From Prevotella sp. (GTDB lineage: Bacteria; Bacteroidota; Bacteroidia; Bacteroidales; Dysgonomonadaceae), in assembly GCA_031285625.1 (NCBI GenBank), contig JAITVV010000092.1, positions 96,001-160,000 on the forward strand: a stretch of DNA of 64,000 nt, read 5' to 3'. The notes beneath the pieces were generated by a model that saw nothing but the letters and a program-made list of their open reading frames with translations, made no database searches and was not told the origin of the DNA. Positions within the stretch are counted from its first letter, which is position 1, and each line of letters opens with the position of its first letter. A program made the position numbers and the translations under genes. Positions 8,074-45,052 of this stretch are shown piece by piece.

Positions 8074-8149
8074 TTTGCGTAAAAAATACGCCAAATATTT
8101 TGCTAAATAAAAAACTATACCTATATTTGCGTAATAATTACGCAAATAT
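8074..8149 (+). promoter_or_regulatory. Paired NrtR-type operators overlapping a -7 promoter
   Basis: TTTGCGTAAAAAATACGCCAA (8074-8094) and the perfect palindrome ATATTTGCGTAAT-A-ATTACGCAAATAT (8123-8149); TATATTTG -7 box at 8122-8129; both sites are GT-N7-AC. Confidence 0.85.
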
Positions 8150-8167
8150 TATTTAAACTAAAGTATT

Positions 8168-9025
8168 ATGAGTCATTCAAGCAACAGAAATAAAAGAGTT
8201 GAAAGCGCTCAACAAACTCTGGACATAATAAAACAAGGGTTCTATATAGTAGATGATGAAAAGATAGATATATCGCATACTATTGAAGAATCAGTAAAGA
8301 AAACAACCCTATATATTCCCGAATATTTTGATAAAAGGCTAAGCTATATCGAAAAGGAAATATCAGAGCGGGGTTTTCAAACCAATATTACAGTTAAGAA
8401 CTGTACGGCAATGGAAGCTGCAGCGGAACTACTCTCCCAAGGGGGCAAAACAGGCTGCTTAAACTTTGCTTCTGCCAAAAATCCCGGTGGCGGCTTCCTC
8501 GGTGGAGCACAAGCACAAGAGGAAAGTCTGGCCAGAGCTTCGGCTCTATATCCGACACAAATGAAATATTTCAAAGAATTCTATGAATATAACCGGGCAC
8601 AAAATACATATCTATATTCCGATTACATGATTTACAGTCCTGACGTAATATTTTTCAAAGATGACAGGGATGACCTTCTAGCTAAGCCTTATGTATTGGA
8701 TATCCTTACCAGTCCTGCTGTAAATATTGGAGCAATGATCCAAAACAACAGACTGGATGAAAAGGATGAAGCCGAACAAACAATGATGAGCCGTATGGAT
8801 AAACTCTTGTCCATATTTGTATCACAAGAGGTAGATAACCTTATTCTTGGTGCATGGGGCTGTGGTGTATTTCGCAATCGTCCTGAAGATGTAGCACGTT
8901 ACTTCGCCCATTATTTACTTAATGAGGGCAAATATGCCAAATGCTTTAAGAATATCACTTTTGCGGTATTCGATACAGGCAAAAAGCAAGAAAATATAAA
9001 TGCCTTTACACAAACTTTCAAATAA
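8168..9025 (+). CDS. Bacterial-type poly(ADP-ribose) glycohydrolase (TIGR02452/DUF2263 macrodomain)
   Basis: LNFASAKNPGGGFLGGAQAQEESL (GGG-x-QEE PARG loop), ILGAWGCGVFRN. Confidence 0.92.
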   Translation: MSHSSNRNKRVESAQQTLDIIKQGFYIVDDEKIDISHTIEESVKKTTLYIPEYFDKRLSYIEKEISERGFQTNITVKNCTAMEAAAELLSQGGKTGCLNFASAKNPGGGFLGGAQAQEESLARASALYPTQMKYFKEFYEYNRAQNTYLYSDYMIYSPDVIFFKDDRDDLLAKPYVLDILTSPAVNIGAMIQNNRLDEKDEAEQTMMSRMDKLLSIFVSQEVDNLILGAWGCGVFRNRPEDVARYFAHYLLNEGKYAKCFKNITFAVFDTGKKQENINAFTQTFK

Positions 9026-9089
9026 CTCCTCTCCCACTGGCACGTTGAAATGCATCATATAGCATCTTTTCTGTCAGTGGGATTATTTC

Positions 9090-11234
9090 TTACTCATTCA
9101 GAGCATGCATTAACCGATACAGGCATATTAATAAATGAGCATCCTCGATCTGATCTATACTATTCATCAAATCATCAAAATTCACCCATACTAATTCTTT
9201 TGCAGGTCTGTCTAAACATACCACATAAGGATACACTTGTTCGGTAGTAATACCCACACTCGGAAAGTATTTTTCCCCCAATTTATAATATTGCTCTATC
9301 CTACTCTCTCCTATATGCATTTCAGAAATATATTGGTTCAGACAGGCCATATTCTCAATATCTTTTGGTAAACGCTTTGCTGGAACGGTAAGAATTGTGC
9401 TATTACCACTCAAAAGTTGAGGAACAGGTAAGTCCCTAATTTCTAATCCTATATATATCTGCTCTCCTTTTTCGTATACAGGGAGGGTTAGTAATGTGTT
9501 AGAGCTGACTTTTTCAGGATATACGTACTCCAATATGGAATGGCTTCCTGTAATATCCGTTTCAGCAAAATATCCCCTCCCAATCTTTAAAAATCCAGCT
9601 CGTTCATGGCTTTCAACGAAGACATTTTTCTTTATGGAAAGTAAGTCGGATGCGTTCGCAACAGGAGTAATGAAATCATTATATTGTATCTGGATCTTTT
9701 CTCCCAGCCATTTAGGCAACTGAACGTTTTGCTTATGGAGTAAGTGATAGATATTAAGTTCTAAGCGAGCCTCAACCAAAGTTCCAGTTTGAGCATTATT
9801 TAATAACTGTATTGCATCATATTGATGAATAAATCCTGATTCTTTAAATCCTGAAAAACCATTTTTGAGAACTCTTGATTTTAGTGGCATCTCTTTCAAT
9901 TCAATAAAGTTTGAGGATACCTTTTCGTTGATGCCTCCGGGAGAAGTATAATAATTCAGTGAATGTATTATAGAAGTATATGTATCTTTGCTTATACCAA
10001 ACCTTTCGGCTAAGACAGCTTCGATATTCTCTGTATTCCCAACTGTAATTCCTTCAGGGATATATCCGCTAAAGTATTTATTATCAATCACAGGACTATC
10101 TGTTTTTACATTTACCAAAGGACGCGGATAGCCATGCTTTGCCAAGACTATGATTTTATTTCCATCTTTATAATAAGGTATAAAATCGCTTACAGGATGA
10201 GGCCTCTCAGCAACATCATAAATATGTCCCGTCTCTGTATTCTTATAAGATATATAATTCAGATAGGGCAGTTCTGAAAGAGGTAGATGACGTACAAGTT
10301 GTACTTGTTTTCCGGCTTTAATCTTCTCTCCGGCAATTAAATAATTTGTAGGAGGGAAACCTATTTCCTGGCCCTTTATATCATATAATCTGAACTGATT
10401 TTTATACCTGTTACTTATTATCCACGAATTATATATTGGGGAGGACAGTATTACCCGCAAACCCAGATTTTGAAAAGATTCTTCGAATTCTCTTTGTGTG
10501 AGATATGCATATTCTTCCTGAAGCTCAATATCCCAATTTGCATAATAATCTTTTCTACGTATAAATTCTACAGCATCAGAATAGAATATTTGGAATAAAC
10601 GAGTCTTTTTATTTTGCGATTTTAGTTCTTTTATGGGGAAGCCTCTTTCTTGAAATGGAGCTAATGATCTGGCTGTCTTGGCAAACAATAACAATAAGTC
10701 ACAATCATTAGGCCTGCCCTCTCGATCTTCCAGAGACAATTCAATGACAACTTCCTGTTCTTCCGGCTTTACAAAGTCGCGTACAACCAGGATACCTCTT
10801 TCTTTCAGCAGGTCAACCTGGCGACGCAGGGTATTTAGCGCACGATTAGTGTCATAGCCATTGTAAGAAGTAATATGATGTATTGCAGAGCAATTAAAAA
10901 ATCCGTTTACAGAATTATCCTCAAAACTATCCAATTTCTCACCATCATCTATCCTGAAAGATAGATTGGGCAACTGGTAAGTCCTTTGAGCTATTTCTAC
11001 CATCTTAGGGTTAATATCTACTCCAATAATATTTAACTCAGGAAATAATTCAGCTAAGATGGCAGAGCTTGTACCCGATGCCATACCAACATCTACAATC
11101 GTATTTTCTTTTTCCGGCTCAAAAAATGTACTGGCAGAAGCCACTTTTTCTATGGATATGGCATCCATAGCATCCAGATATTGCTGATAACTTTGCTTAT
11201 CTCCCCTGTCTTGATCAGTATAGTTTGTATTCAT
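9090..11234 (-). CDS. Class I SAM methyltransferase fused to two degenerate Nudix-like domains
   Basis: IVDVGMASG motif I, IGVDIN; C-terminal YYTSPGGINE and YFPSVGITTEQ segments resemble ADP-ribose pyrophosphatases; start moved to MNTNY. Confidence 0.7.
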   Translation of the reverse strand: MNTNYTDQDRGDKQSYQQYLDAMDAISIEKVASASTFFEPEKENTIVDVGMASGTSSAILAELFPELNIIGVDINPKMVEIAQRTYQLPNLSFRIDDGEKLDSFEDNSVNGFFNCSAIHHITSYNGYDTNRALNTLRRQVDLLKERGILVVRDFVKPEEQEVVIELSLEDREGRPNDCDLLLLFAKTARSLAPFQERGFPIKELKSQNKKTRLFQIFYSDAVEFIRRKDYYANWDIELQEEYAYLTQREFEESFQNLGLRVILSSPIYNSWIISNRYKNQFRLYDIKGQEIGFPPTNYLIAGEKIKAGKQVQLVRHLPLSELPYLNYISYKNTETGHIYDVAERPHPVSDFIPYYKDGNKIIVLAKHGYPRPLVNVKTDSPVIDNKYFSGYIPEGITVGNTENIEAVLAERFGISKDTYTSIIHSLNYYTSPGGINEKVSSNFIELKEMPLKSRVLKNGFSGFKESGFIHQYDAIQLLNNAQTGTLVEARLELNIYHLLHKQNVQLPKWLGEKIQIQYNDFITPVANASDLLSIKKNVFVESHERAGFLKIGRGYFAETDITGSHSILEYVYPEKVSSNTLLTLPVYEKGEQIYIGLEIRDLPVPQLLSGNSTILTVPAKRLPKDIENMACLNQYISEMHIGESRIEQYYKLGEKYFPSVGITTEQVYPYVVCLDRPAKELVWVNFDDLMNSIDQIEDAHLLICLYRLMHALNE

Positions 11235-11389
11235 TGTATTATATCCATTAAAAAGTAACAAAAGTAACACATTTTATATGCTTTTTTACTGTTACTTTTT
11301 CCCTTTTATCAAATCAAGAGCTCTTTATATAAGACAATTTGCATTGGAAAAACTCTTTATACTCTGTAGTTTTAGGGCCGACTTTTTTT

Positions 11390-12124
11390 TCACTTATGAT
11401 AAGTCAAATTATCCAAATTATATTCTTCCCATGGAATAGCCAGCTTTATCGGAGAGGCAGTAATAAGATCAAGAACTATTTCACTTAAGTTTACCATTGT
11501 TACTACACCCAAATCATTTTTAGCTGCTATTTCGAGGAATATCCTCAGTTCAGATATATAGCTAGCAGCATATTCTTCTGTTTCTTGAGGTATGATATCA
11601 CCATAATTGGCCAAAAGGAGCTTAACTTCATTATCTGTCAGCCAATTTACCATACCATTTCCAAGATATGCATGCAAACTGCCAGACTCCGGAAAACGGA
11701 GTGCTTCCAAATATTTTAAAGCAACAGACTTATAATCCATTTTGTCAAAATCGACAAAATAGCTTAACAACCGTTTACCTAACCTGAAATGAGGAGTAAA
11801 TAAGGCGCATTCAGAAAAAACAATAAGTTGAATAATCCTACTCAGATCTTCAATAGCTTGTATATGTATATTTACAAAAGTATCCTGATTGGTAGCATGC
11901 TTATATATAGAATGAATCTTAAAACCGGCATCAAAATCCCTGCATAGTTTTAAAATATTCTCAATTCTGTGACCTCTATTTGTTACATTATCCCAAAGAA
12001 TGGACTTACCCAGACATGAATTAAAATAATGTTGAAGGATCCGGCCTTCCCCCATCAAGTCTGGCACTATTATATTGTGAAATTTTTTACTATCGAATAA
12101 ATGTAATGTATTGCAATCCCCCAT
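11390..12124 (-). CDS. Hypothetical protein
   Basis: 244-aa ORF, no recognised motif; TATATTTG -7 box just upstream. Confidence 0.6.
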   Translation of the reverse strand: MGDCNTLHLFDSKKFHNIIVPDLMGEGRILQHYFNSCLGKSILWDNVTNRGHRIENILKLCRDFDAGFKIHSIYKHATNQDTFVNIHIQAIEDLSRIIQLIVFSECALFTPHFRLGKRLLSYFVDFDKMDYKSVALKYLEALRFPESGSLHAYLGNGMVNWLTDNEVKLLLANYGDIIPQETEEYAASYISELRIFLEIAAKNDLGVVTMVNLSEIVLDLITASPIKLAIPWEEYNLDNLTYHK

Positions 12125-12161: not shown

Positions 12162-13175
12162 TTAGTTTACAAGCCAGTTACGAATAGTTAGCATTTTACC
12201 TTCAATCAATCTGTCTATTTCATCTACTGCTTTTTCGAAACGCTCGTCCCAATTTCCCATAATTTCTGTATAAGGGATATCATGTTCATTTAGTGTCTCA
12301 CGGTGTGATGCATCCAGCCTGTTCCGGCTTTCTTCATCCATTCGGGTTCCATCCTGAACAAACTTTACATCATTGCTTAGATATAAATACAAATTAGCTC
12401 TATTGGCATCATATACATGATTATCAAGCATTAAATCTTCGTTGAAAGTAAAACGTCCATATGATTTTGTAATATGAATATCCGTATCGATTATAATAAG
12501 CGGGGAATCTTTTATCTCTGATAACCGAATACGTTTGGCGTGCTCGTCAGCTACCAGATATAAATCGTTAATAGAGAAATCATTCGAATCGGCTATAATA
12601 TCCCTACCTGCCTCAAAAACAGCTATTGCATTATAATGCTTAGCCAATTTTCCGGTCAATACAGTTTTGCCTGTCGATTCGGTTCCCAAAATAACAACCT
12701 TGATAACCATATCAGGCTTTACAGCATCGGGAAGGTATTGCCAATAAGAAAACAGGTCGGAACGTATCTTAGATGCTGCAACCGGAACCATATTCCTTTC
12801 CATATCGAAAAGGATATGTTTTATTCCTATATATTCAGCTATATACTCCCCATAAGGCTCTGAGGTGATAACAGTTGCATAATCTGGAAAATATTCCTTA
12901 AAAACTTCTGTCCATTTCTTTGAAACGTCCCGTGATGATTCGGAAGAATTGGGCAAATCAGATTCTTTATAGTTGAAAGTAATAATTTCGATGTTAGGAA
13001 TATCAGCAAAAGTTTTCTCAATCCAGTTTTCACGAACTTTTGCCGGTATATTTTCCTTATCGCTTGCACAAACAAGTACAGATAAAAAGTCGACCTGTGT
13101 CAAAGCAAAGCGAATCATAGCTTCATGCCCTTTGTGAAAAGGCAGGAATTTACCAAATACAAAACCTTTATTCAT
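12162..13175 (-). CDS. nadR: NadR-like NMN adenylyltransferase / ribosylnicotinamide kinase (no HTH)
   Basis: FGKFLPFHKGH (HxGH), P-loop GTESTGKT, IIDTD, FVQDGTR; adjacent to pnuC. Confidence 0.88.
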   Translation of the reverse strand: MNKGFVFGKFLPFHKGHEAMIRFALTQVDFLSVLVCASDKENIPAKVRENWIEKTFADIPNIEIITFNYKESDLPNSSESSRDVSKKWTEVFKEYFPDYATVITSEPYGEYIAEYIGIKHILFDMERNMVPVAASKIRSDLFSYWQYLPDAVKPDMVIKVVILGTESTGKTVLTGKLAKHYNAIAVFEAGRDIIADSNDFSINDLYLVADEHAKRIRLSEIKDSPLIIIDTDIHITKSYGRFTFNEDLMLDNHVYDANRANLYLYLSNDVKFVQDGTRMDEESRNRLDASHRETLNEHDIPYTEIMGNWDERFEKAVDEIDRLIEGKMLTIRNWLVN

Positions 13176-13791
13176 TTGCCTGCTTTTTATACCAGTTATA
13201 CAATCCATAAGATGCAATAAATAGCAATACCAGATATTCCAATGCTATGAAATAGATGCCTTGCTGATAATACAGCACAATGCAAACGACATCATTTATC
13301 ACCCACAAAGCCCAATTCTCAAACTTCTTCTTAGCCAGCAGGATAGTGGCTACAATACTGATAACCATCACAAACGAGTCTGCATAAGGAAAAGCGGAAG
13401 CTTCTTTAAAATACTCAGGCAATGTAATATGTATGTTACCGATAAAATATCCGGTCAATACTGTTCCTGCTATGATAATCAGGGCAGTCAAGAACAGCCC
13501 TTTGGGTCTCAGCCTTGTAACTTTACTTTCTTCTTCTCCATATTTCCATCTGTACCACCCATATATCGAACTAAAGAAGAAAATAACCTGCAAAAACATA
13601 TTTGCATATAGCTGAACCTGAAAGAAAATGACAAATAAAAATAGTTCATTGACAATACCACTGGGCCATGTCAGTATATTTTCCCTTGATGCCCAATAAA
13701 CACACAACAAACCGAATACTGTACCTATCAGTTCAGCATAGCTAAGTGGGTAGCCCAGTATTTCGAGAAATATATTTTGTATGTCAAACAT
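13168..13791 (-). CDS. pnuC: Nicotinamide riboside transporter PnuC
   Basis: Multi-TM protein, LYANMFLQ, YGWYRW, ENWALW motifs; coupled to nadR. Confidence 0.9.
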   Translation of the reverse strand: MFDIQNIFLEILGYPLSYAELIGTVFGLLCVYWASRENILTWPSGIVNELFLFVIFFQVQLYANMFLQVIFFFSSIYGWYRWKYGEEESKVTRLRPKGLFLTALIIIAGTVLTGYFIGNIHITLPEYFKEASAFPYADSFVMVISIVATILLAKKKFENWALWVINDVVCIVLYYQQGIYFIALEYLVLLFIASYGLYNWYKKQANE

Positions 13792-13916: not shown

Positions 13917-13917
13917 A

Positions 13918-18332: not shown

Positions 18333-18410
18333 TTTACGTATTATTTACGCAAACAAAGTAAGAAATAAATATTCAATCTAACAAATAAATTTGCGTATAT
18401 TTTACGCAAA
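18333..18410 (-). promoter_or_regulatory. Paired NrtR-type operators upstream of the vWA gene
   Basis: TTTACGTATTATTTACGCAAA (18333-18353) and TTTGCGTATATTTTACGCAAA (18390-18410). Confidence 0.85.
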
Positions 18411-36139: not shown

Positions 36140-36143
36140 AATA

Positions 36144-36554: not shown

Positions 36555-36555
36555 T

Positions 36556-37428: not shown

Positions 37429-37431
37429 TTT

Positions 37432-37974
37432 CTATTCTGATATATACTTTGAGTCTACAAAATCTGTCAGCCAGACACCATTATCCGATACAAAAAATTC
37501 AATACCATTACGATGCATTTGTCCCGACAAGATAGTGAGAATTACCGGACGTCCGTGACGAGAGCCAACTTTATGTGCCGTCTCTTTATCCTTACTCAGG
37601 TGTACATGCTGACGGCTGGCTTTCCTTATCCCATTCTCCATAATAGATGCGTAGAAACGGTCTGCCGTACCATGATACAGATATTCGGGTGGTTCCACAG
37701 GGCTTAAAGCTAAATCTATATCAACAGAGTGTCCCTGATTGGCTCGTATTCTTGTTTTATCTTCGTTGAAGGAATAACGCTTCTTATCGTTAGTCGCTAC
37801 TATTTCTTCCAACTCATTCATTGTGAAACTGACTCTGTGTTTACTACATTTTTCAATTAGTTCATGTACATTTACCCAACCATTTGGGTCTAGTTCAATA
37901 CCTATTTTTTGAGGTTCATGCCTTAGTATAAGGCTTAAGAATTTACCTATTCTTTTTTTATGTTGTTCTGTCAT
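37432..37974 (-). CDS. kptA: RNA 2'-phosphotransferase Tpt1/KptA
   Basis: LSLILRH, KKRY, IRANQGHS, LYHGT, RQHVHLS, NGVWL. Confidence 0.95.
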   Translation of the reverse strand: MTEQHKKRIGKFLSLILRHEPQKIGIELDPNGWVNVHELIEKCSKHRVSFTMNELEEIVATNDKKRYSFNEDKTRIRANQGHSVDIDLALSPVEPPEYLYHGTADRFYASIMENGIRKASRQHVHLSKDKETAHKVGSRHGRPVILTILSGQMHRNGIEFFVSDNGVWLTDFVDSKYISE

Positions 37975-37994
37975 TTGTGTTTATTATTATAAAA

Positions 37995-38909
37995 TTAATC
38001 AAAGTAAAAAGTATCTGTACTTTCTACTGAATTTAGCCACTCTTGCGGTATGGTTTCATCCGGGGCATAAAGTATCACAATACTGCCTACCATCGCACAA
38101 ATAGTGTCCCTGTCTCCCAATGCCGAGACTGCACGCCAGAGAGCATCTTCAAAGTTATCGAGATGATTGGCAGCGCACCAGATGGCAATAGGCACCGTAT
38201 CCTGAGAGGTCAGCTTAATGCCATTACCAAGAATGGAAACCACTGTATCTATACGGTATGTTCCGGGAATATGCATCGCTTTTCTTATTTTAGACTTTGT
38301 GTCACTGTCTTCTAACTGGTCATATACTTCCTTAATAAAAGCCTCAGCAGAAAGTTGAGTATTTGTTAACCTGAGATTCAACGCAAGAGAAGCTGCATAA
38401 GCAATAGCCGTAGCCCCTACCCTAGCTTCAAGGTTGAAATGTGTAACTAATGCTGATTTAGCTACTTCTGATTTCAGCCACTTCAAATCATTATAGAAAT
38501 ATGCACCCAAAGGAGCAGTCCGCATAGCCGCGCCGTTACCCATAGAGCCCTGTCCATCGAATACACTGGCTGATACTTCCTGCCAGGGTTGCCCCTCGCC
38601 TATTTCTCGCAAAATCTTATGAGCCGTTCCACCATATCCACGGTTGATATCTTTTCGGTAATTACTTGCAAACTGTTTTGCCAGCATATCCTGATTGACT
38701 TCACCATTAGCAACCAGATTATTTAATACGGCTATAGCCATTACAGTATCGTCCGTATATTCCCATTTAGTATAGGGAGGTACAATGCGGTTATCTATAT
38801 AATTGTTTACAGTATCCAAATCTCCGAAAAAGCTATCCCCAAAGGCATCGCCAATAGATAATCCCAACAGAGATTTCTTTGCATATTCTATATTTAATTT
38901 CTTTGTCAT
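37995..38909 (-). CDS. ADP-ribosylglycohydrolase (DraG/ARH family)
   Basis: GDAFG, YTDDT, GNGAAMR, GDRDT. Confidence 0.93.
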   Translation of the reverse strand: MTKKLNIEYAKKSLLGLSIGDAFGDSFFGDLDTVNNYIDNRIVPPYTKWEYTDDTVMAIAVLNNLVANGEVNQDMLAKQFASNYRKDINRGYGGTAHKILREIGEGQPWQEVSASVFDGQGSMGNGAAMRTAPLGAYFYNDLKWLKSEVAKSALVTHFNLEARVGATAIAYAASLALNLRLTNTQLSAEAFIKEVYDQLEDSDTKSKIRKAMHIPGTYRIDTVVSILGNGIKLTSQDTVPIAIWCAANHLDNFEDALWRAVSALGDRDTICAMVGSIVILYAPDETIPQEWLNSVESTDTFYFD

Positions 38910-39389
38910 TTAATCAAAATCGTAGATATAGACATCTATATCATTTTTTACTAATGTTTTTTCAATTAGCGGCTCTACTTTTTCCCACTTGCCACCTGCC
39001 AGACCACACCCAATACGGGGCATATGTACGCTGGCGCGTAATTGTTTTGCTCCCTCAGCCAGTTTTTCGAGGCAGGACTCAATAGCTTCATATCTTATAG
39101 GTACTCCCGTACTTCTCCCTGTTTTGGTTCCACGCTGGCCAATCATATTCGCTACGTAAATATACGGTTCTACCTGCACAATCTGTATATTTCCCAATGC
39201 AAAATTGTTTTCTGCACGTTCCCTGTGCCATAAGCGGAATGCTTTTTCCGGTTCGGGCCAGCGTTTAGATATGGCTAAAACAAAGCCTTTTCCCCAACCG
39301 CCTATATCATTGCTTATATGAGCTATTATCTTTGTTCCGCTGGCTTGCGGGGAAGTAGCATCACCTTTTAGGTATGTTATCTTTTTCAT
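38910..39389 (-). CDS. SCO6735/TARG1/DarG-class macrodomain
   Basis: KGDATSP, IIAHISNDIGGWGKGFV, NMIGQRG, MPRIGCGLAGGKW. Confidence 0.9.
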   Translation of the reverse strand: MKKITYLKGDATSPQASGTKIIAHISNDIGGWGKGFVLAISKRWPEPEKAFRLWHRERAENNFALGNIQIVQVEPYIYVANMIGQRGTKTGRSTGVPIRYEAIESCLEKLAEGAKQLRASVHMPRIGCGLAGGKWEKVEPLIEKTLVKNDIDVYIYDFD

Positions 39390-39406
39390 TTTAGTATCAT
39401 TTTTCT

Positions 39407-39997
39407 TTAATCCATCCCTAGCCGCTTCATTATTTCCTCCGATATAGGATAAACCTTTTCTTTCGGTAACAACTCTTTCGCTTTATCATGTCGACCGTCT
39501 AAGCGTAATTTATATATCTTATTTGCCAAAGGGGAATAGTCCTTAATATCCACAATCCATTCTTCGTTATATTCCTGTATCAAATGACGGCTGATACCCA
39601 CTTGTATAGAGCGGTAATCCATCTTTTGTCCCCTGATAGAACGTTCAGGGTCCCATTGTACATGCACCTTTGCCTGGTCAAACATTTCGCGCCAGACATC
39701 ACCATTAGCATACACCCGATGTGAAGGATGTGTTAATACAGCCTGAGAAAGAGCATATTCCCACGCCGAACGTTTGATTCTTACTGCCAGAATATACTCC
39801 TGTCCTGACTTTTGTCCGTAACCGCTGCGTTCCATCATCCACAAGAACGAAGGTTTTATCCATGTCATGCGGGTGTATGAAAATGGCGGTACAAACCGTT
39901 TATTTTCTATTGCGGGTTTTCCTATTGCTTCTCTGTAAGCCTGATAGACAATAATTGTATCCCTGTCGTAATCGGCTCTTATTTCATATTGTTTCAT
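39407..39997 (-). CDS. DUF4291-domain protein
   Basis: EIRADYD...VYQAY, RMTWIKPSFLWMMERSG, VQWDPER, RSIQVG. Confidence 0.9.
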   Translation of the reverse strand: MKQYEIRADYDRDTIIVYQAYREAIGKPAIENKRFVPPFSYTRMTWIKPSFLWMMERSGYGQKSGQEYILAVRIKRSAWEYALSQAVLTHPSHRVYANGDVWREMFDQAKVHVQWDPERSIRGQKMDYRSIQVGISRHLIQEYNEEWIVDIKDYSPLANKIYKLRLDGRHDKAKELLPKEKVYPISEEIMKRLGMD

Positions 39998-40952
39998 TGT
40001 ATTTCTTTTCTAATCTGTCACATAAATCCATTATGTCATCTTTGCGGGCTAACTGGTCTATCCATTTTTGAGGAATGGCATCGAAACCATATAACAGACC
40101 GGCAAGCCCTCCGGCAATAGCGGCTGTAGTATCCGTGTCGCTACCCAGATTAACTGCTCTGAGCACTGTCCCCTCATATGTATCTTCTTTAAAGAGGCAC
40201 CACAAAGCTGCTTCGAGACTGTGAACCACATAGCCCGACGATGCTATTTCCGATTCAGGATATTCATATATTGGCTTTATCTCATATCCTCCAACAGGAT
40301 TTAGTAAAATCCGGTGGAATTTATTTATCTCATTATCGGAACAAATAGGGTTATTATGTAAAAAGTTATTTACTATTTCCTTTGTATTTTCAAAGGCTTT
40401 GAACTTATCATGCATCTTAATCAGTCGCAGCCCAAACTCTATATAGATAAAGCAGGCCAGCACAGACCTGATATGTCCATGGGTAAGGGAGGATACATCC
40501 TGTATATGCCTGAAACGTTCTGCGATATCCATATGCTGCACATAAAACAGTAAAGGCATAATGCGCATTAGTGAACCGTTTCCATTATCGGCTTCCTCGC
40601 GGCCACCTGCCATAACAGGATTTATATCTTTCATCAACTGATATATAGCCCTCGATGTAGCAACCCCAACATCAAAAACCTCTCCATGAGGTGTCCAGTA
40701 ATTATCTTCGTACCATGATACAAAGCGCATCCCCATATCTTTCAGGTTATAACCTCTGGTCAGACTTTCAGCCAGGCAAAAAGTCAAAGAGCTATCGTCC
40801 GACCATGTGCCTGCAGGCTGGTTATGCGTTCCATAGGCAAGCATATCTGTAACGGGATTTTCTTTCAGATAATCCCTATTTCTGAATTCGACAGGTACAC
40901 CTAAAGCATCGCCAACGGCTACGCCGAATAAAGCGCTATATATTAGTTTCAT
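39984..40952 (-). CDS. ADP-ribosylglycohydrolase (DraG/ARH family)
   Basis: GDALGVPVEF, WSDDS, NGNGSLMRI, GSDTDT; start moved to MKLIY. Confidence 0.94.
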   Translation of the reverse strand: MKLIYSALFGVAVGDALGVPVEFRNRDYLKENPVTDMLAYGTHNQPAGTWSDDSSLTFCLAESLTRGYNLKDMGMRFVSWYEDNYWTPHGEVFDVGVATSRAIYQLMKDINPVMAGGREEADNGNGSLMRIMPLLFYVQHMDIAERFRHIQDVSSLTHGHIRSVLACFIYIEFGLRLIKMHDKFKAFENTKEIVNNFLHNNPICSDNEINKFHRILLNPVGGYEIKPIYEYPESEIASSGYVVHSLEAALWCLFKEDTYEGTVLRAVNLGSDTDTTAAIAGGLAGLLYGFDAIPQKWIDQLARKDDIMDLCDRLEKKYNETI

Positions 40953-41712
40953 AATCAGATAATTTAATTGTATGGTATACCCATTCTTTAGAAGAATCCA
41001 AAAGTGATACAAGCAACAACTTCTTATTCTTAATCAGAGATATTGAACTTCTCTGAGATAATAGTTGTTTGTCGGATTCAAGTTCTAATACAAGTTCAGG
41101 TTCTCTTTTCTGCATATTAAAATTATAAATCGCATTTGAAGAGAATATGAATAAACAATTTTCCAAAGGAGATTCTGCAACCCCAGCAATCTGAAAGCTG
41201 CAAAAATCATTCAGCAGGATTAATTCATCAGTTTTTTTCAGATAACAATAATATTCGTATTCGTTTATATTATCACTCTTGTAAAGGCAAGAATAAAAAA
41301 TGATTCCAAGAAAACTCTCAGGGATAAAAGAAATCCAATTTAATCTTCTTTCTGTATAATTCCCCGAATATATCATTTCCATTTTTCCTGAATCCATATC
41401 AACAAAAACAATCTGGTTACCTTTTTCCACTAGAGAGAAATAACATGTTTTTGAATCTATTGACCATGGATAGTTTGAAATTGCTCTTATATAGTCTCCC
41501 TTATTATGTTCCCAAACAGTTTCATTTGATTCTGTATTTATTATTTTGCCATAATAAAAAGCATCTCCAAATCTGTATTCTCCCATATAAGTTAAGCCTA
41601 ACCGATATTTTTTATCAAGAGACACATAGTTATCTTTTCCATAATATTTAGGTATGCATCCATTAAGTACCTGATAATCGGCTTCTGTTATAGCATCTAT
41701 TTTAAGCTTCAT
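40936..41712 (-). CDS. Hypothetical protein (possible beta-propeller fragment)
   Basis: 258-aa AT-rich ORF inside the operon. Confidence 0.6.
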   Translation of the reverse strand: MKLKIDAITEADYQVLNGCIPKYYGKDNYVSLDKKYRLGLTYMGEYRFGDAFYYGKIINTESNETVWEHNKGDYIRAISNYPWSIDSKTCYFSLVEKGNQIVFVDMDSGKMEMIYSGNYTERRLNWISFIPESFLGIIFYSCLYKSDNINEYEYYCYLKKTDELILLNDFCSFQIAGVAESPLENCLFIFSSNAIYNFNMQKREPELVLELESDKQLLSQRSSISLIKNKKLLLVSLLDSSKEWVYHTIKLSDYETNI

Positions 41713-41727
41713 GATTTTTTGGAAAAA

Positions 41728-42279
41728 TTATCCACAATTCTTTTTTAATTTGTCTCGTACCTCCATTAAGGCAAAGCCTAACAGATTTGTCCCTTTCCAC
41801 AAATATGGATTATTTACATTTTCGTTTTCTTCACTTAACCCTATGCCCCATATCCGGTCGAGAGGGCTGGCTTCAACAAGAACTTTATTTCCTGTATCCA
41901 ACAAAAAAGACTTCATCTCTTCATTCTGAGAGAATTTATAGAAGTTACCTTCCTCAACAATACCGGATTGGTATTTTTTCCATTCAGTCAGGTCAAAGTT
42001 TCTGACTTTCTTTCCTAAAATCTGGACTTCGGCAGGAGATTCAGTAGAAAGTATCTCCCGGCAAATATCCTTGTCTCCGAATAATTCTGCTTTTTTAGCC
42101 ATCATCCAGTGCTCAGTTGTCAGATAACACACATTATCTACAGCAAAAGGTGAATATGTCCATTGGCTAAGACATGCTCCGGTTACAGTAGTACCTTTCT
42201 CCGGCTTCCAGAAGAAAAGGTACTCTATTACCTCTGTATTTAGTTTATCGTAAAGCCAATTGATGTTATATGTTTTCAT
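41728..42279 (-). CDS. NADAR-family protein
   Basis: LSQW, TEHWMMAKKA, LVEASPLDRIWGIG, GTNLLG. Confidence 0.93.
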   Translation of the reverse strand: MKTYNINWLYDKLNTEVIEYLFFWKPEKGTTVTGACLSQWTYSPFAVDNVCYLTTEHWMMAKKAELFGDKDICREILSTESPAEVQILGKKVRNFDLTEWKKYQSGIVEEGNFYKFSQNEEMKSFLLDTGNKVLVEASPLDRIWGIGLSEENENVNNPYLWKGTNLLGFALMEVRDKLKKNCG

Positions 42280-42832
42280 TATTCAGTTTATCCCTTATCT
42301 CCATTAATGCAAAGCCTAATAGATTCGAACCTTTCCATAGACGGGGATTCTCGGCATGTTCATCATCCTGCGCCATTCCTATTCCCCATATTTTATCTAC
42401 GGGACTGGCTTCAACCAATACCCTGTCTTTTGTATTCAGCAAAAATTCTTTCAGACCGGCATGTTGCGAGAACTTATGATAATTCCCTTCACAAACGATA
42501 TCAAAACAGTTTTCACCCCATACTTTCGGGTCAAAATTCTTGACTTTCCTTCCCAGTTTTTTAGCTTCGGCTGGAGATTTTGCTTGTAAGATTTGTTCTA
42601 TCATTTCTTTATCAAATAATTCTGCTTTCTTAGCCATCATCCAATGTTCGGCAGTGGCATATGTCACGCCATCTACCGTGAAAGCACTCTGCCACCACTG
42701 GCTAAAGCATGATTTTGTTACTGAGCCGTCTTTTGACACGGCATGTCCCCAGAATAGAAGATATTTAGCACTTTCTTTTTTCTCAACTTTATTTAGTAGC
42801 CAGTTTATGTTGTAGGTTGTATATTTTTCCAT
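42266..42832 (-). CDS. NADAR-family protein
   Basis: FSQWW, TAEHWMMAKKA, LVEASPVDKIWGIG, GSNLLG. Confidence 0.94.
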   Translation of the reverse strand: MEKYTTYNINWLLNKVEKKESAKYLLFWGHAVSKDGSVTKSCFSQWWQSAFTVDGVTYATAEHWMMAKKAELFDKEMIEQILQAKSPAEAKKLGRKVKNFDPKVWGENCFDIVCEGNYHKFSQHAGLKEFLLNTKDRVLVEASPVDKIWGIGMAQDDEHAENPRLWKGSNLLGFALMEIRDKLNNENI

Positions 42833-42869
42833 TGTTTTTTTATTTTATATAATTATTTTCTTTTTACTG

Positions 42870-43097
42870 TGCGCAATCAAAGATTGCTTACCTTCCTTTT
42901 GCCCAAAGCCGCAAAAGGAAGCAAAAACGCTTTGGTGGCACACCCTCTCAGACGACCCCTTACAGGCTCACGGACTAAATCGAAAGAACTTGCCTTTCAG
43001 GCTTCGGACAACTTTCAATTTTACGTCCGTTTTACCTGAGGGGTACCCCGTCTGTCGGGTTAACGCCACTGAGAGCAAAGCCGCGACAAGAAAGGGT
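42870..43097. repeat. GC-rich nested-hairpin intergenic element
   Basis: CTTCCTTTTGC/GCAAAAGGAAG hairpin, then nested pairs GTGGC/GCCAC, CAGACG/CGTCTG, CCCCT..CAGG/CCTGAGGGG, ACGGAC/GTCCGT. Confidence 0.55.
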
Positions 43098-43114
43098 ATT
43101 AATTTCAAATTTCT

Positions 43115-44005
43115 TTATATACTTAGTTGCACAAATTCTTTTATAAAGTTTTTATCCAGTGTCTCGCGCCAGGTTCGCATAGAGTGAAAAGCATCCGTTT
43201 CGGAAAGCATCAGATAATTCAATACATTCTGATTTACGTTAGCATCACTCCGAAGCCTGACTCCCGAACCGCTGACATCACCCAAAGCACAGATTGCCGT
43301 TTTCTTGGCCAGACTGATGTCTATATACGAACCAGCCTGCTTGGTATCGAACATATAAGGTGGATAGTAATTCTTATATTTCCCATTTATAGTCTTTACT
43401 TTATCGGTACATATATGATAAAAACTTGTCACCTTAATACCATGTATCTCAGGGATAATAAATACTGAATCGGGATTTATGCCTGCATGAGTAACCTCCA
43501 GTGATTCCAGCATAGATACAAATTCTATTAGCCGGGAGAATATCCAGTTCACGTGTTTATTTTTTTCATTTTCAGGGAGTAAACCGATTGCCTTGTTTAA
43601 CGGAATACACTTATATCCGGATTTATAAACCAGTTGATTCCCTTCAAAATCAAGATTAGATGGTATATACTGCATAAAGTGGCTGAAAGACTGCGCATTA
43701 AAATTACTCTTAGCCAAAAATATGATTTTATCATAGTTCACCTTGGACTTCTTAAGCAAATCAACATCACCTTCCCACCTATGGACCAGATAATTGGAAC
43801 GGAATATTCCCGATTCATCCCGAAACTCGTAACCTCTCTCAAAATCCGTTTTCAGATTATTAAGATGGGTAAAAGCCAAGACAGCATCTTTATCTTTATT
43901 TACATCCGGGTGAAGATTTTTTGCTAAAATCTTATAATCCGCGTGGTCTTTACAAATGTCAGGATACCAGTTTGTAGATAATATTCTATTGATGTAGTTG
44001 TTCAT
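43115..44005 (-). CDS. Minimal J-domain (HPD) fused to a degenerate protein-kinase-like domain
   Basis: YKILAKNLHPDVN...AFTHLN; WIFSRLIE...VTHAGINPDSVFI (catalytic-loop-like, no Asp at the HxD position). Confidence 0.7.
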   Translation of the reverse strand: MNNYINRILSTNWYPDICKDHADYKILAKNLHPDVNKDKDAVLAFTHLNNLKTDFERGYEFRDESGIFRSNYLVHRWEGDVDLLKKSKVNYDKIIFLAKSNFNAQSFSHFMQYIPSNLDFEGNQLVYKSGYKCIPLNKAIGLLPENEKNKHVNWIFSRLIEFVSMLESLEVTHAGINPDSVFIIPEIHGIKVTSFYHICTDKVKTINGKYKNYYPPYMFDTKQAGSYIDISLAKKTAICALGDVSGSGVRLRSDANVNQNVLNYLMLSETDAFHSMRTWRETLDKNFIKEFVQLSI

Positions 44006-44076: not shown

Positions 44077-44099
44077 AAACAATAGATACATATTCTCCA

Positions 44100-44801
44100 T
44101 TACAATTCAAAGTAAAATCCATCTTTCGACAATTTCTCATATTTCTCTTTGTCGAAACTATACAGTTTTGGTGCCCTGTTTGGCGCTCCGCTTAGAAACT
44201 CATTTTTATCAATCAGAAGACCGAAGCTCAGCATTTTCTTTCTGAAATTGCGTCTGTCCATCTTTGTTTGTAGAACGGTTTCGTAGAGTTGATGCAGCTC
44301 AGGCAAAGTAAATTCCTCCGGTAACAGTTCAAAACCAATAGGCTGATATTTTATTTTCCCTTTTAGTCTTTCAATTGCCATTTTCAGAATTTCCTGATGG
44401 TCAAAAGCCAAGTCAGGAACTTCTGAAAGAGGAAACCATTTTATATTAGCCGTATCCGTTCCTGCCTGCGCATCATAATCGGATAGTTTAACTAATGCAT
44501 AATAGGCAATACTCACCACCCGGTAACGGGGGTCACGCTCTACTGCCGAAAAAGTGTAAAGCTGCTCCATAAATAAATCAGACAGACAAGTCTCTTCCAA
44601 TAATTTACGTCGAGCACAGGTTTCTGCATCTTCATTCATATCAAGGAATCCACCAGGCAGTGCCCATCTGCCTTTATAGGGCTCAATACCCCTCTCAATC
44701 AACAGTATTTTCAATTCTCCTTCATCGAATCCGAATATAACACAGTCAGTCGTCACTGCCGGTCTCGGATATTCATAAATGTAACTTCCCGGTTGTTCCA
44801 T
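44100..44801 (-). CDS. nrtR: Nudix-related transcriptional regulator NrtR
   Basis: YPRPAVTTDCVIF, WALPGGF, degenerate Nudix box (RRKLLEETCL), RDPR, AFDH, wHTH FTLPEL...DRRNFRKK. Confidence 0.93.
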   Translation of the reverse strand: MEQPGSYIYEYPRPAVTTDCVIFGFDEGELKILLIERGIEPYKGRWALPGGFLDMNEDAETCARRKLLEETCLSDLFMEQLYTFSAVERDPRYRVVSIAYYALVKLSDYDAQAGTDTANIKWFPLSEVPDLAFDHQEILKMAIERLKGKIKYQPIGFELLPEEFTLPELHQLYETVLQTKMDRRNFRKKMLSFGLLIDKNEFLSGAPNRAPKLYSFDKEKYEKLSKDGFYFEL

Positions 44802-44869
44802 ATTTTTTATTTCAAAATTCTAAGTTGTAAAAAGAGGTTTAATTAAAAATATCAGAGTATTATCTTCTT

Positions 44870-44939
44870 TGTCATTCTGAATGTAATGAAGAATCTCGAC
44901 CCTCCGGACATGAGATGTTTCACTACGTTCAACATGACA
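44870..44939. repeat. REP-like hairpin repeat, short form
   Basis: TGTCATTCTGAATGTAATGAAGAATCTCG...GAGATGTTTCACTACGTTCAACATGACA, in the nrtR 5' leader. Confidence 0.85.
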
Positions 44940-44979
44940 AAGAGAAAAAATTACTTTTGAGGCTCTTACCATCCTATAG

Positions 44980-45052
44980 TTAGCGTAATTTTTACGCAAA
45001 TATATATGGTTATTTTTTATCTGCAAAATATTTGGCGTAATTTTTACGCAAA
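44980..45052 (-). promoter_or_regulatory. Paired NrtR-type operators and -7 promoter of the nrtR operon
   Basis: TTAGCGTAATTTTTACGCAAA (44980-45000) and TTGGCGTAATTTTTACGCAAA (45032-45052); TATATTTG on minus at 44997-45004. Confidence 0.88.

What the first reader, a model, noticed from the sequence alone, without database searches (positions are those of the whole stretch)
8074..45052. Three paired GT-N7-AC operators unite scattered loci into one NrtR regulon
Seen: six 21-bp palindromes (consensus TTTGCGTA-N5-TACGCAAA) in pairs at 8074/8126, 18333/18390 and 44980/45032 (offsets 52, 57, 52 bp). The 8071-8146 region and the reverse complement of 44980-45055 are alike even in the spacer, and in both the gene-proximal box overlaps a TATATTTG -7 element. 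Established: NrtR repressors bind GT-N7-AC palindromes and are released by ADP-ribose; the NrtR here has a degenerate Nudix box (RK in place of RE), consistent with a sensor. Inference: PARG, the vWA-PurA-like cluster and the 13-gene eraser operon are co-induced by ADP-ribose; 52 bp (about 5 helical turns) suggests cooperative binding or looping.
Basis: partly seen in the sequence, partly recalled or inferred. Interest (0 to 1): 0.8.

Follow-up and report, generated by a model that had tools for sequence, protein, structure and literature searches.

The report
Twin NrtR operators bracketing three promoters
Three promoters in this Dysgonomonas-like genome each carry two copies of a near-perfect 21-bp palindrome that is very probably the binding site of a neighbouring NrtR repressor, so that NAD-precursor uptake genes and a large set of ADP-ribose-removing enzymes appear to be switched on together.

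Summary
Six boxes (TTTGCGTA-N5-TACGCAAA, 0-1 mismatch) lie at the stated coordinates in three pairs. They are the only sites of that quality in the 4.84-Mb genome: no site has 2 mismatches, and the 21 sites with 3 are broken or lie inside genes.

Each pair brackets a Bacteroidota-type promoter. The distal box ends 4-5 nt before a TTTG (-33). The proximal box overlaps or directly follows the -7 element and covers the predicted start site.

The same twin arrangement (offsets 51-57 bp) precedes nrtR orthologues or their operons in 28 of 78 related loci; a reversed-pattern control gave 0 pairs. Those operons encode classical NAD salvage (prs-nadV-nadE, pncB-pncA-nadE) or ADP-ribosylglycohydrolase systems. 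The regulator has Nudix and NrtR winged-helix domains, and its four paralogues in this genome sit in carbohydrate loci.

The reading "one NrtR regulon" is therefore well supported, though without binding data. ADP-ribose as inducer is inferred. The five-helical-turn looping idea is weakened, because spacing follows promoter geometry and a 55-57 bp class exists. Nudix-regulated ADP-ribose-hydrolase systems were predicted in print in 2022, but I found no description of the operators.

The parts
8074..8094 (.). distal operator box of the PARG promoter (1 mismatch)
8099..8102 (+). TTTG, candidate -33 element, 19 nt before the -7 element
   Evidence: the -33 consensus and its spacing are recalled, not read in a paper
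8122..8129 (+). TATATTTG, -7 element (TAnnTTTG); its TTTG is the first four bases of the proximal box
   Evidence: consensus from passages of PMC4747536 and PMC9723704
8126..8146 (.). proximal operator box of the PARG promoter (perfect); the predicted start site near 8134 lies inside it
   Evidence: start site inferred from the -12 to -5 position of the -7 box
8168..9025 (+). bacterial-type poly(ADP-ribose) glycohydrolase, single gene, convergent with the methyltransferase gene
   Evidence: PARG_cat_microb, E 1.3e-49; TIGR02452
18390..18410 (.). distal operator box of the second operon (perfect)
18382..18385 (-). TTTG, candidate -33 element, 4 nt after the distal box
18354..18360 (-). TACTTTG, imperfect -7 element ending directly before the proximal box (the 55-57 bp class)
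18333..18353 (.). proximal operator box of the second operon (1 mismatch)
17351..18280 (-). 309-aa protein with a vWA fold and a DxTGS metal-site motif; first gene behind the boxes
   Evidence: no Pfam hit; AlphaFold model pLDDT 88; Foldseek integrin I-domains, E about 1e-6; 83% orthologue behind a 57-bp box pair in L009
16087..17229 (-). adenylosuccinate-synthetase-like protein (380 aa, below the purA family cut-offs)
13918..15909 (-). TonB-dependent receptor
13168..13791 (-). PnuC nicotinamide riboside transporter
12162..13217 (-). NadR-like NMN adenylyltransferase / ribosylnicotinamide kinase
11390..12124 (-). 244-aa protein of no known family
9090..11270 (-). 726-aa protein with an N-terminal SAM methyltransferase domain; last gene of the second operon; conserved in relatives
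45032..45052 (.). distal operator box of the nrtR promoter (1 mismatch), 9 nt after the stop of the WYL gene
45024..45027 (-). TTTG, candidate -33 element, 19 nt before the -7 element
44997..45004 (-). TATATTTG, -7 element overlapping the proximal box
44980..45000 (.). proximal operator box of the nrtR promoter (1 mismatch)
44856..44950 (-). copy of a dispersed REP/MITE-like repeat inside the nrtR leader; it moves the boxes to 179 nt before the ATG, against about 24-40 nt in most relatives
44100..44801 (-). nrtR: Nudix-like domain plus NrtR winged-helix domain, degenerate Nudix box (RK)
35873..44005 (-). twelve further ORFs on the same strand behind nrtR: unknown 296 aa, NADAR x2, unknown 258 aa, ADP-ribosylglycohydrolase x3, DUF4291, macrodomain, Tpt1/KptA, unknown 148 aa and 88 aa
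   Evidence: co-transcription is inferred

Best explanation
The six palindromes are operators of the NrtR-family repressor encoded at 44100-44801.

Placement. One dimer sits on a box that ends 4-5 nt before the -33 TTTG. A second dimer sits on a box that overlaps or directly follows the -7 element and covers the predicted start site. Together they clamp the core promoter and keep RNA polymerase off.

Targets. Three promoters are held this way:
- the single-gene PARG promoter;
- an operon starting with a vWA-fold protein and a PurA-like protein, followed by a TonB receptor, pnuC, a nadR-like gene and a large methyltransferase;
- the promoter of nrtR itself, which heads twelve further ORFs rich in ADP-ribose hydrolases (2 NADAR, 3 ADP-ribosylglycohydrolases, a macrodomain, Tpt1/KptA, DUF4291).

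Signal (inferred). When ADP-ribose or a close derivative accumulates, it binds the catalytically degenerate Nudix domain. This would happen when NAD is consumed or ADP-ribose adducts are cleaved. The repressor then leaves the DNA, and NAD-precursor uptake and the ADP-ribose-removing enzymes rise together with the repressor.

Shown here: the sites, their uniqueness in the genome, the promoter geometry, conservation in relatives, and the domain make-up of the regulator.

Inferred: binding, repression, the identity of the effector, and co-transcription of the long operons.
For: 1. The sites are a distinct population. There are 6 at 0-1 mismatch and none at 2. Of the 21 at 3 mismatches, 19 break the GT/AC core and 2 lie inside long open frames.

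2. The regulator has NUDIX and NrtR_WHD domains. Its best solved relatives are BtAraR (E 3.6e-53) and Shewanella NrtR (1e-32).

3. The box has the same layout as the DNA in the BtAraR complex: GCGT-N7-ACGC here against GTGT-N7-ACAC there (PMC4666351, section 15). The contact residues D, R, N and K of the recognition helix are kept (DRRNFRKK).

4. The twin boxes are conserved. 19 of 78 related loci have a pair within 400 nt before the nrtR orthologue, and 9 more have one elsewhere. Seven of those 9 head an operon that contains nrtR. Offsets are 51-57 bp. The reversed-pattern control gave 0 pairs.

5. Genes behind the pairs in relatives fit the family's biology: prs-nadV-nadE-x-nrtR in Sphingobacterium; nrtR-pncB-pncA-nadE in L014 and L017; ARG, phosphatase, vWA, PP2C, NADAR, NMNAT-NADAR and TonB-receptor/NadR-like genes in Bacteroidaceae and Prevotellaceae.

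6. Protein and site vary together. The four Sphingobacterium loci have G in place of the helix arginine equivalent to BtAraR Arg180, and have A at box position 5 in 16 of 16 half-sites. All other loci have C or T there. This is one lineage, so one event.

7. Pocket residues are conserved. R37, R89 and H135 are present in 80 of 80 orthologues. R92, the equivalent of Shewanella NrtR Arg98 that binds ADP-ribose and is Gly in arabinose-sensing BtAraR, is present in 78 of 80.

8. On a quick tree the window's NrtR lies in a well-supported clade (SH-aLRT 98) of 14 rows together with the Sphingobacterium NAD-salvage regulators.

9. The four paralogues in this genome sit in arabinose, xylose, GH3 and sulfatase contexts.

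10. Release of NrtR from DNA by ADP-ribose was shown for the Shewanella protein (PMC2330246, passages) and for MsNrtR (PMC6800001, passages).
Against: - There are no binding, footprint, start-site or expression data. The public RNA runs were uninformative.
- 50 of 78 related loci showed no pair with this pattern. Their motif may differ or the sites may be absent.
- The NCBIfam equivalog for the ADPR-responsive repressor scores 170 bits against a cut-off of 400.
- The closest solved relative is a sugar sensor, not an ADP-ribose sensor.
- Two phosphate contacts of Shewanella NrtR are not kept: Asn43 is Ile39 here, and Lys76 is Glu70.
- 61 of 80 orthologues keep an intact RE in the Nudix box. The clade is therefore not uniformly a pure sensor.
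- A paralogue on contig C86 has boxes of its own with the same GCGT-N7-ACGC core, so cross-talk cannot be excluded.
- Co-transcription of the long operons is unverified. A 10-bp hairpin follows the PurA-like gene. Repeat copies fill two gaps. A 282-nt structured gap lies inside the nrtR operon.
Confidence: 0.75

Rival explanations
1. The repressor and operators are as described, but the natural inducer is not free ADP-ribose. It would be another NAD-related molecule, such as phospho-ADP-ribose, ADP-ribose 1''-2'' cyclic phosphate made by Tpt1/KptA, O-acetyl-ADP-ribose, NaAD or NAD(P), or ribose 5-phosphate.
For: Several dinucleotides besides ADP-ribose released Shewanella NrtR in vitro (PMC2330246, passages). 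Two of that protein's phosphate contacts are not conserved here. The operon encodes Tpt1/KptA and enzymes that act on varied ADP-ribose adducts. The nearest solved relative senses a pentose through the same R/R/H triad.
Against: Arg92, the equivalent of the ADP-ribose-binding Arg98 and a Gly in the sugar sensor, is kept in 78 of 80 orthologues. An aromatic-rich N-terminal YxYxYP stretch is also conserved. The regulated genes make or consume ADP-ribose-type compounds.
Confidence: 0.2
2. The 52-bp centre-to-centre distance is selected for helical phasing. The two dimers would then contact each other on one face of the DNA (looping or a tetramer), and this cooperativity would be the essence of repression.
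For: 52 bp is the commonest offset, found in 14 of the 32 pairs tabulated (9 of the 19 pairs directly upstream of nrtR), and it is close to five turns. Tandem sites giving two shifted complexes are known for Shewanella NrtR and BtAraR.
Against: A second class with offsets of 55-57 bp, about 5.4 turns and nearly the opposite face, includes this window's second operon and its orthologue in L009. The 3-4 nt difference is a shift of the proximal box relative to the -7 element. The distal box keeps a fixed distance to the -33 TTG in 26 of 32 pairs. BtAraR tandem sites are separated by 3 or 42 nt, which is a different geometry.
Confidence: 0.25
3. The boxes are bound by a different protein. Candidates are the WYL-domain regulator encoded directly upstream (45061-46083) or the NrtR-family paralogue on contig C86, whose own boxes share the GCGT-N7-ACGC core.
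For: The WYL gene ends 9 nt before the distal box. The C86 paralogue has three similar boxes before its own gene, two of them 53 bp apart.
Against: Across relatives the boxes follow nrtR, not WYL. A WYL homologue was found by tblastn in 4 of 80 related loci (L008, L020, L031, L064), and no box lies beside any of them. The protein-site co-variation involves the NrtR helix. The C86 boxes differ in the flanks and in the bases next to the core, and score 4-5 mismatches to this motif.
Confidence: 0.05
4. The palindromes are not protein sites. They would be structural elements, either small terminator hairpins or a dispersed repeat.
For: The simple terminator scan flags the distal boxes, since each gives a short stem followed by T-rich sequence. 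A real dispersed repeat is abundant in the same intergenic regions.
Against: The stems have only 5-9 pairs with AT-rich loops, and terminator-like hits are no more frequent than in shuffles. There are only six copies in the genome, always in promoter-bracketing pairs. In relatives the bases are conserved as a palindrome with invariant G6 (122 of 122 half-sites) and T7 (120 of 122), while the loop varies.
Confidence: 0.03

Closest known systems
NrtR regulons of NAD metabolism (Rodionov et al. [quoted passage not shown]
   Same: The regulator is a Nudix-like domain plus a winged helix. The operators are 21-bp palindromes with a GT-N7-AC core. The regulator is autoregulated. Targets include pnuC-nadR. 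Tandem sites occur. An ADP-ribosylglycohydrolase target was already predicted for Streptomyces.
   Different: The regulon here is dominated by ADP-ribose-removing enzymes: PARG, 3 ARH, a macrodomain, 2 NADAR and Tpt1. Every promoter carries two boxes in a fixed bracket around a Bacteroidota -33/-7 promoter. For Bacteroidetes, that paper lists pentose regulons plus the NAD regulon of Cytophaga hutchinsonii (passages seen; its supplementary tables could not be seen).
Bacteroides thetaiotaomicron AraR (BT0354; Chang et al. 2015, PMC4666351)
   Same: It is the closest solved structure (E 3.6e-53). It has the same GNGT-N7-ACNC operator layout, recognition-helix contacts D, R, N and K, tandem operators, and an impaired Nudix box.
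   Different: AraR senses L-arabinose in a pocket whose nucleotide cleft is filled, and has Gly89 where this protein has Arg92. Its tandem sites are 3 or 42 nt apart. Its core is GTGT rather than GCGT. It sits in a sugar-catabolic context. This genome has its own AraR-context paralogue on contig C61.
ARG-centred systems predicted to counter viral ADP-ribosylation (Iyer, Burroughs, Anantharaman, Aravind 2022, PMC9503650, section 3.8)
   Same: ADP-ribosylglycohydrolases sit with Macro, NADAR and vWA proteins under a predicted negative one-component regulator with a Nudix sensor that responds to ADP-ribose. The proposed logic is the same: off by default, induced by released ADP-ribose.
   Different: In the section read, that paper gives no operator sequences. 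It names Actinobacteria, Planctomycetes and Proteobacteria, and describes Nudix and WYL regulators as mutually exclusive. Here both genes are adjacent, no phosphatase domain was found in the window's operons, NAD-precursor uptake genes are co-regulated, and a Tpt1/KptA (ART-fold) gene sits inside the operon.

Membership tests
NrtR family of Nudix-related transcriptional regulators | N-terminal Nudix-like domain fused to the family's C-terminal winged helix-turn-helix domain | tested here: met
   Pfam NUDIX (E 5.3e-18) and NrtR_WHD (E 4e-23); alignments to BtAraR and Shewanella NrtR over both domains
NrtR family of Nudix-related transcriptional regulators | 21-bp palindromic operators with a GT-N7-AC core in front of the regulator gene and its targets | tested here: met
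   (G6 in 122 of 122 half-sites, T7 in 120 of 122)
NrtR family of Nudix-related transcriptional regulators | genomic linkage to NAD metabolism genes | tested here: met
   pnuC and a nadR-like gene in the second operon; orthologues head prs-nadV-nadE or pncB-pncA-nadE operons
NrtR family of Nudix-related transcriptional regulators | DNA binding relieved by ADP-ribose | not testable with these tools
   Only pocket conservation could be examined: R37, R89, H135 and R92 are kept, while the equivalents of Asn43 and Lys76 are not
NCBIfam NF050029 (ADPR-responsive transcriptional repressor, equivalog) | score at or above the curated cut-off of 400 bits | tested here: not met
   170.4 bits, E 4.6e-50. 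It is a relative of that equivalog, not a member by the curated cut-off.
ARG-centred anti-ADP-ribosylation systems (Iyer et al. 2022) | ADP-ribosylglycohydrolase gene(s) without a coupled ADP-ribosyltransferase or sirtuin | tested here: inconclusive
   Three ARG genes and no classical ART or sirtuin by Pfam, but Tpt1/KptA lies in the operon. That Tpt1/KptA is an ART-fold enzyme is recalled and from passages of PMC9503650.
ARG-centred anti-ADP-ribosylation systems (Iyer et al. 2022) | one-component negative regulator with a Nudix or a WYL sensor (described as mutually exclusive) | tested here: met
   The Nudix regulator is present. A WYL regulator gene is also directly adjacent, which departs from the stated exclusivity.
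ARG-centred anti-ADP-ribosylation systems (Iyer et al. 2022) | coupled phosphatase (rhodanese-phosphatase, calcineurin-like, HD or HAD), in a little over 55% of systems | tested here: not met
   No phosphatase domain in the window's three units. Relatives have one: DSP-type phosphatase fused to ARG in L035 and L048, PP2C in L036, L040 and L042, HD in L083.
ARG-centred anti-ADP-ribosylation systems (Iyer et al. 2022) | accessory vWA chaperone, Macro and NADAR genes | tested here: met
   vWA fold; Macro and two NADAR genes

The most novel reading that the evidence does not exclude
A single ADP-ribose-sensing repressor runs a dedicated ADP-ribosylation stress response in Bacteroidota. It would derepress nearly every known class of ADP-ribose eraser (PARG, ARH, macrodomain, NADAR, plus Tpt1 and DUF4291) together with TonB-dependent uptake and salvage of NAD precursors. 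The cell would then repair ADP-ribosylated protein, DNA and RNA and refill NAD after attack by phage or toxin ADP-ribosyltransferases or NADases. Repression would work through a phylum-specific twin-operator clamp on the -33 and -7 promoter elements. The regulon would have grown by copying the nrtR promoter in front of PARG.
Probability: 0.4. Interest if true: 0.7.

Novelty: new variant of a known kind. Interest (0 to 1): 0.5.

Why it matters
Predicted bacterial systems against ADP-ribosylation so far lack any defined regulatory DNA. This locus offers a small, clean, testable regulon: three promoters, six nearly identical operators and one repressor.

If the reading holds, it links NAD-precursor uptake to reversal of ADP-ribosylation. 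It gives a reporter for intracellular ADP-ribose in Bacteroidota. It also shows how an NrtR repressor is fitted to the unusual -33/-7 promoter of this phylum.

The same motif and geometry can be used to find such regulons in gut Bacteroidales. There the orthologous regulator heads ARG-phosphatase-vWA operons.

Tried and rejected
- Sigma-70 promoter and terminator scans over both operons. Counts equal those of shuffles, and the promoter type does not fit this phylum.
- Single-box search at up to 2 mismatches in 41 genomes of the family. Other genomes had 0-5 matches against 0-8 for the control, so one box alone is not diagnostic. Only the paired arrangement is.
- Rfam on the whole window and on the 282-nt gap: no match.
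- Public sequencing runs. One RNA run held 6% of the sampled words and one run of unknown kind held 47%. Both are kept as contigs from relatives about 90-97% alike and break at the repeats. They give no information on start sites, expression or regulation.
- Profile-profile comparison of the 309-aa protein with vWA proteins of relatives. Only the metal-site motif aligned (probability 2.8%), because the profiles were too shallow. The question was settled by fold instead.
- Protein atlas look-up for the same protein: a weak vWA lead only (0.83).
- Huang et al. 2009 (PMC2896262) is not held. The ADP-ribose contacts of Shewanella NrtR were therefore taken from the comparison in PMC4666351.
- Earlier notes of this scan: none for this genome.
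- The careful tree search did not finish, so the quick tree was used.
- Literature searches for NrtR with NADAR, PARG, macrodomain, glycohydrolase, Tpt1, Dysgonomonas, anti-phage, Bacteroidetes/Bacteroidota or palindrome found no description of these operators or of this regulon in Bacteroidota. RegPrecise and the papers' supplementary tables could not be consulted and may hold related predictions.

Full report
**1. The observation**

A search with TTTGCGTA-N5-TACGCAAA finds 8126 and 18390 as perfect matches and 8074, 18333, 44980 and 45032 with one mismatch each. A seventh match at 56736 has 3 mismatches. The expectation for the window at up to 3 mismatches is 0.35, and 0 of 100 shuffles reached 7.

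The window is contig C37:96001-160000 of a 4.84-Mb assembly of 96 contigs that is 94% complete. Over the whole genome the sites fall into mismatch classes 0:2, 1:4, 2:0, 3:21 and 4:225. The six therefore form a separate population.

Among all sites with up to 4 mismatches, the only pairs 21-120 bp apart are these three plus one pair of two 4-mismatch sites on C14. The reversed pattern gave no site below 2 mismatches and 2 pairs. Of the 21 three-mismatch sites, 19 break the GT/AC core and the other 2 lie inside open frames of 1706 and 343 codons.

**2. What lies around the boxes**

Pfam and NCBIfam give the following.

- 44100-44801(-) is an NrtR-family regulator (NUDIX plus NrtR_WHD).
- Behind it on the same strand lie twelve ORFs: unknown 296 aa, NADAR, NADAR, unknown 258 aa, ADP-ribosylglycohydrolase, DUF4291, macrodomain, ADP-ribosylglycohydrolase, Tpt1/KptA, ADP-ribosylglycohydrolase, unknown 148 aa and unknown 88 aa.
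- 8168-9025(+) is a bacterial-type PARG.
- The third unit, 18280 down to 9090(-), holds a 309-aa protein, a PurA-like protein, a TonB-dependent receptor, PnuC, a NadR-like NMN adenylyltransferase/kinase, an unknown 244-aa protein and a 726-aa protein with a methyltransferase domain.

It matters, because pnuC-nadR is a classical NrtR target (PMC2330246, passages).

The 309-aa protein has no Pfam hit even at E 5. An AlphaFold model from a 39-sequence alignment has pLDDT 88. It matches integrin I and I-like domains (Foldseek E about 1e-6, probability 1.00), and the protein carries a DxTGS motif. The label 'vWA' therefore holds by fold.

**3. Promoter geometry**

Both 52-bp pairs enclose TTTG-N19-TATATTTG: 8099-8129 on the plus strand and 45027-44997 on the minus strand.

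TAnnTTTG is the Bacteroides and flavobacterial sigma-A -7 box, placed at -12 to -5 (passages of PMC4747536 and PMC9723704). The -33 TTTG and its 19-21 nt spacing are recalled, not read. On that basis the starts fall near 8134 and 44992, inside the proximal boxes.

I lined up 32 pairs, 3 from the window and 29 from relatives.

- TAnnTTTG begins 4 nt before the proximal box in 20 pairs, all with offsets of 51-54 bp.
- It begins 8 nt before the box in 2 pairs.
- It is inexact in 10 pairs. Nine of them belong to the 55-57 bp class, in which a TTTG sits 3-4 nt before the box; these include the window's second operon (TACTTTG, then the box). The tenth, L039 (52 bp), lacks only the TA before the box's own TTTG.
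- The first TTG after the distal box starts 4 or 5 nt behind it in 26 of 32 pairs.

The spacing is therefore explained by one box abutting the -33 element and the other covering the -7 element and the start site. It is not restricted to whole helical turns.

The PARG and nrtR promoters are 62 of 76 identical, and their spacers 20 of 31 (chance 9.1, sd 2.6). In relatives PARG lies inside the nrtR operon (L011, L012, L015). The window's PARG promoter therefore looks like a copy of the nrtR promoter.

**4. Conservation**

A search of species-representative genomes with the regulator returned 80 loci, the closest from Dysgonomonas and other Bacteroidales at 73-80% identity.

Of the 78 loci with at least 300 nt upstream, 19 have a pair within 400 nt before the orthologue's start. 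A pair here means each box has up to 4 mismatches and the offset is 45-65 bp. The offsets are 51 (4 pairs), 52 (9), 53 (2), 54 (1) and 56 (3). Ten loci have a pair elsewhere, one of which also has an upstream pair, giving 28 of 78 loci in all. 32 of 78 have at least one box with up to 3 mismatches upstream. The reversed pattern gave no pair in any locus. The other 50 loci showed no pair with this pattern.

In most relatives the proximal box starts 23-40 nt before the ATG. In the window it is 179 nt, because a copy of a dispersed repeat sits in the leader.

tblastn with the window's proteins and Pfam on downstream ORFs show what follows the pairs. Pfam was run on 73 of 104 downstream ORFs from 25 loci. 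Left out beforehand were the nrtR ORFs themselves, ORFs already identified by tblastn, and three near-duplicate loci.

- Sphingobacterium: prs-like, nadV, nadE, an unknown gene, nrtR.
- L014 and L017: nrtR-pncB-pncA-nadE.
- Dysgonomonas group: nrtR-NADAR-ARH-DUF4291-Macro-PARG-Tpt1 in varying order.
- Bacteroidaceae, Prevotellaceae and Rikenellaceae: nrtR with ARG (sometimes fused to a dual-specificity-type phosphatase), vWA, PP2C, DUF1810, NADAR, NMNAT-NADAR fusions, and in L042 a TonB receptor with a NadR-like gene.
- L009: a 57-bp pair precedes the orthologue (83%) of the vWA-fold gene, followed by PurA-like, NADAR and methyltransferase genes.

**5. Which protein binds**

The genome encodes four more NrtR-family proteins at 32-42% identity. 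By their neighbours they belong to arabinose (C61), xylose (C35), GH3 (C86) and sulfatase (C91) loci. This agrees with the pentose regulators described for Bacteroidetes (PMC2330246, PMC3878776).

On a quick maximum-likelihood tree of 84 proteins, the four paralogues lie on long branches outside the orthologue group. The support values are SH-aLRT, and the careful search did not finish. The window's protein falls in a clade of 14 with support 98. That clade holds 8 regulators linked to ADP-ribose genes and the 4 Sphingobacterium NAD-salvage regulators.

The box layout GCGT-N7-ACGC matches the GTGT-N7-ACAC seen in the BtAraR-DNA crystal. The helix residues that contact DNA there are kept here as DRRNFRKK: Asp178, Arg180, Asn181 and Lys184 are unchanged, and Lys179 is Arg.

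Over 61 boxes (122 half-sites) the consensus is TTTGCGTAA(A/T), with G6 in 122 of 122 and T7 in 120 of 122. Position 5 is C in 86, T in 20 and A in 16. All 16 A's come from the four Sphingobacterium loci, whose helix has Gly in place of the Arg180 equivalent. That is one lineage and so one event, but it is the kind of co-variation expected if this helix reads these boxes.

The C86 paralogue has three boxes of its own with the same core but different flanks. Cross-talk cannot be excluded.

**6. The effector**

This part is inferred. ADP-ribose released Shewanella NrtR and MsNrtR from DNA in vitro (passages).

Using the residue comparison in PMC4666351 (section 14) and the alignments:

- The sugar-binding triad (R37, R89, H135) is invariant in 80 of 80 orthologues.
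- R92 is present in 78 of 80. It aligns with Shewanella NrtR Arg98, which binds ADP-ribose and is Gly in the arabinose sensor.
- The equivalents of Asn43 and Lys76 are Ile39 and Glu70 here.
- 61 of 80 orthologues keep RE in the Nudix box, 10 have RI, and 9, including the window, have RK.

The pocket thus looks nucleotide-competent and is shared by regulators of NAD salvage and regulators of ADP-ribose hydrolases. The exact ligand remains open.

**7. What is known**

Rodionov et al. 2008 defined the family, the 21-bp GT-N7-AC motif, tandem sites in Shewanella and an nrtR1-draG unit in Streptomyces. Chang et al. 2015 described tandem AraR sites 3 or 42 nt apart.

Iyer et al. 2022 (section 3.8, read in full) predicted ARG-centred systems with vWA, Macro, NADAR and phosphatases under a Nudix- or WYL-sensor repressor induced by ADP-ribose. 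They proposed a role against viral ADP-ribosylation. The regulatory idea is therefore in print.

What I did not find in print is the operator sequence, the fixed twin bracket on the Bacteroidota promoter, the joint control of TonB-receptor/pnuC/nadR genes with the erasers, or this clade in Bacteroidota. Supplementary files and RegPrecise could not be seen.

PADLOC recognises only the NADAR proteins (candidate family PDC-M42C), the macrodomain (DarG-like) and the WYL protein.

**8. Verdict**

The finding is a real and well-supported regulon prediction. It is a new variant of a known kind rather than a new kind of system. Repression by promoter clamping is the most likely mechanism. ADP-ribose-type induction is plausible but untested, and the five-turn looping argument is not needed.

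Open points are co-transcription of the long operons and any role of the adjacent WYL regulator. A hairpin at 16068-16044, repeat copies in two gaps and a 282-nt structured gap bear on co-transcription.

Noticed in passing
window 44856-44950, 18465-18580, 17230-17350, 13792-13917, 44040-44080: A dispersed palindromic REP/MITE-like repeat with ends TTTGTCAT...ATGACAAA fills several intergenic gaps of the regulated operons and the nrtR leader. It gives 85 BLAST segments on 33 contigs of this genome and none in the 80 related loci.
   Followed up: partly
window 42833-43114 (minus strand): The 282-nt G+C-richer gap between the 296-aa ORF and the first NADAR gene folds into a long stable structure (-95 kcal/mol, z -5.15, 0 of 200 shuffles as good). 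It has no Rfam match. 106 nt recur at 86% identity on contig C52. It may be a structured RNA or a remnant of a mobile element inside the operon.
   Followed up: partly
window 45061-46083 (minus strand): A WYL/WCX-domain regulator gene ends 9 nt before the distal nrtR box. Iyer et al. 2022 describe Nudix and WYL regulators of ARG systems as mutually exclusive, yet here both are adjacent. WYL homologues also lie near nrtR homologues in L008, L020, L031 and L064.
   Followed up: partly
genome contig C86:43850-44025 (locus L116, about 5850-6025): An NrtR-family paralogue next to GH3 glycosidase genes has three boxes of its own (GTGCGT...ACGCA) at -174, -121 and -81, with offsets of 53 and 40 bp. 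Twin operators about 53 bp apart may be a wider habit of the family in this phylum.
   Followed up: partly
window 16087-18280 and locus L009 14420-16564: A vWA-fold protein and a shortened PurA-like protein form a conserved pair behind the boxes. The vWA-like family is large (1592 proteins at E up to 1e-5). Its nearest atlas clusters are about half viral by the few members with a record.
   Followed up: partly
loci L040 8376-9440 and L055 8370-9431: Fusion proteins of a cytidylyltransferase-like (NMNAT-type) domain with NADAR head the nrtR operon behind twin boxes in two Bacteroidaceae/Prevotella genomes.
   Followed up: no
loci L008 and L011, about 7360-8760; window 48872-49603: In two Dysgonomonas relatives a Tpt1/KptA gene and an RNA ligase gene lie side by side just before nrtR. 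In the window the RNA ligase gene lies 4 kb away from nrtR and Tpt1 is inside the operon. This hints at an RNA-end repair theme.
   Followed up: no
window 18354-18361: The -7 region of the second operon reads TACTTTGT. This also fits the TAnnTTGY box ascribed to an alternative sigma factor in Flavobacterium psychrophilum (PMC9723704, passage). That promoter might use a different sigma factor from the other two.
   Followed up: no
window 46503-47096 and 4805-8014: A CbrC-type colicin E2 tolerance protein (above the NCBIfam cut-off) lies two genes before the WYL regulator. A tricorn-type protease gene ends just before the PARG promoter.
   Followed up: no
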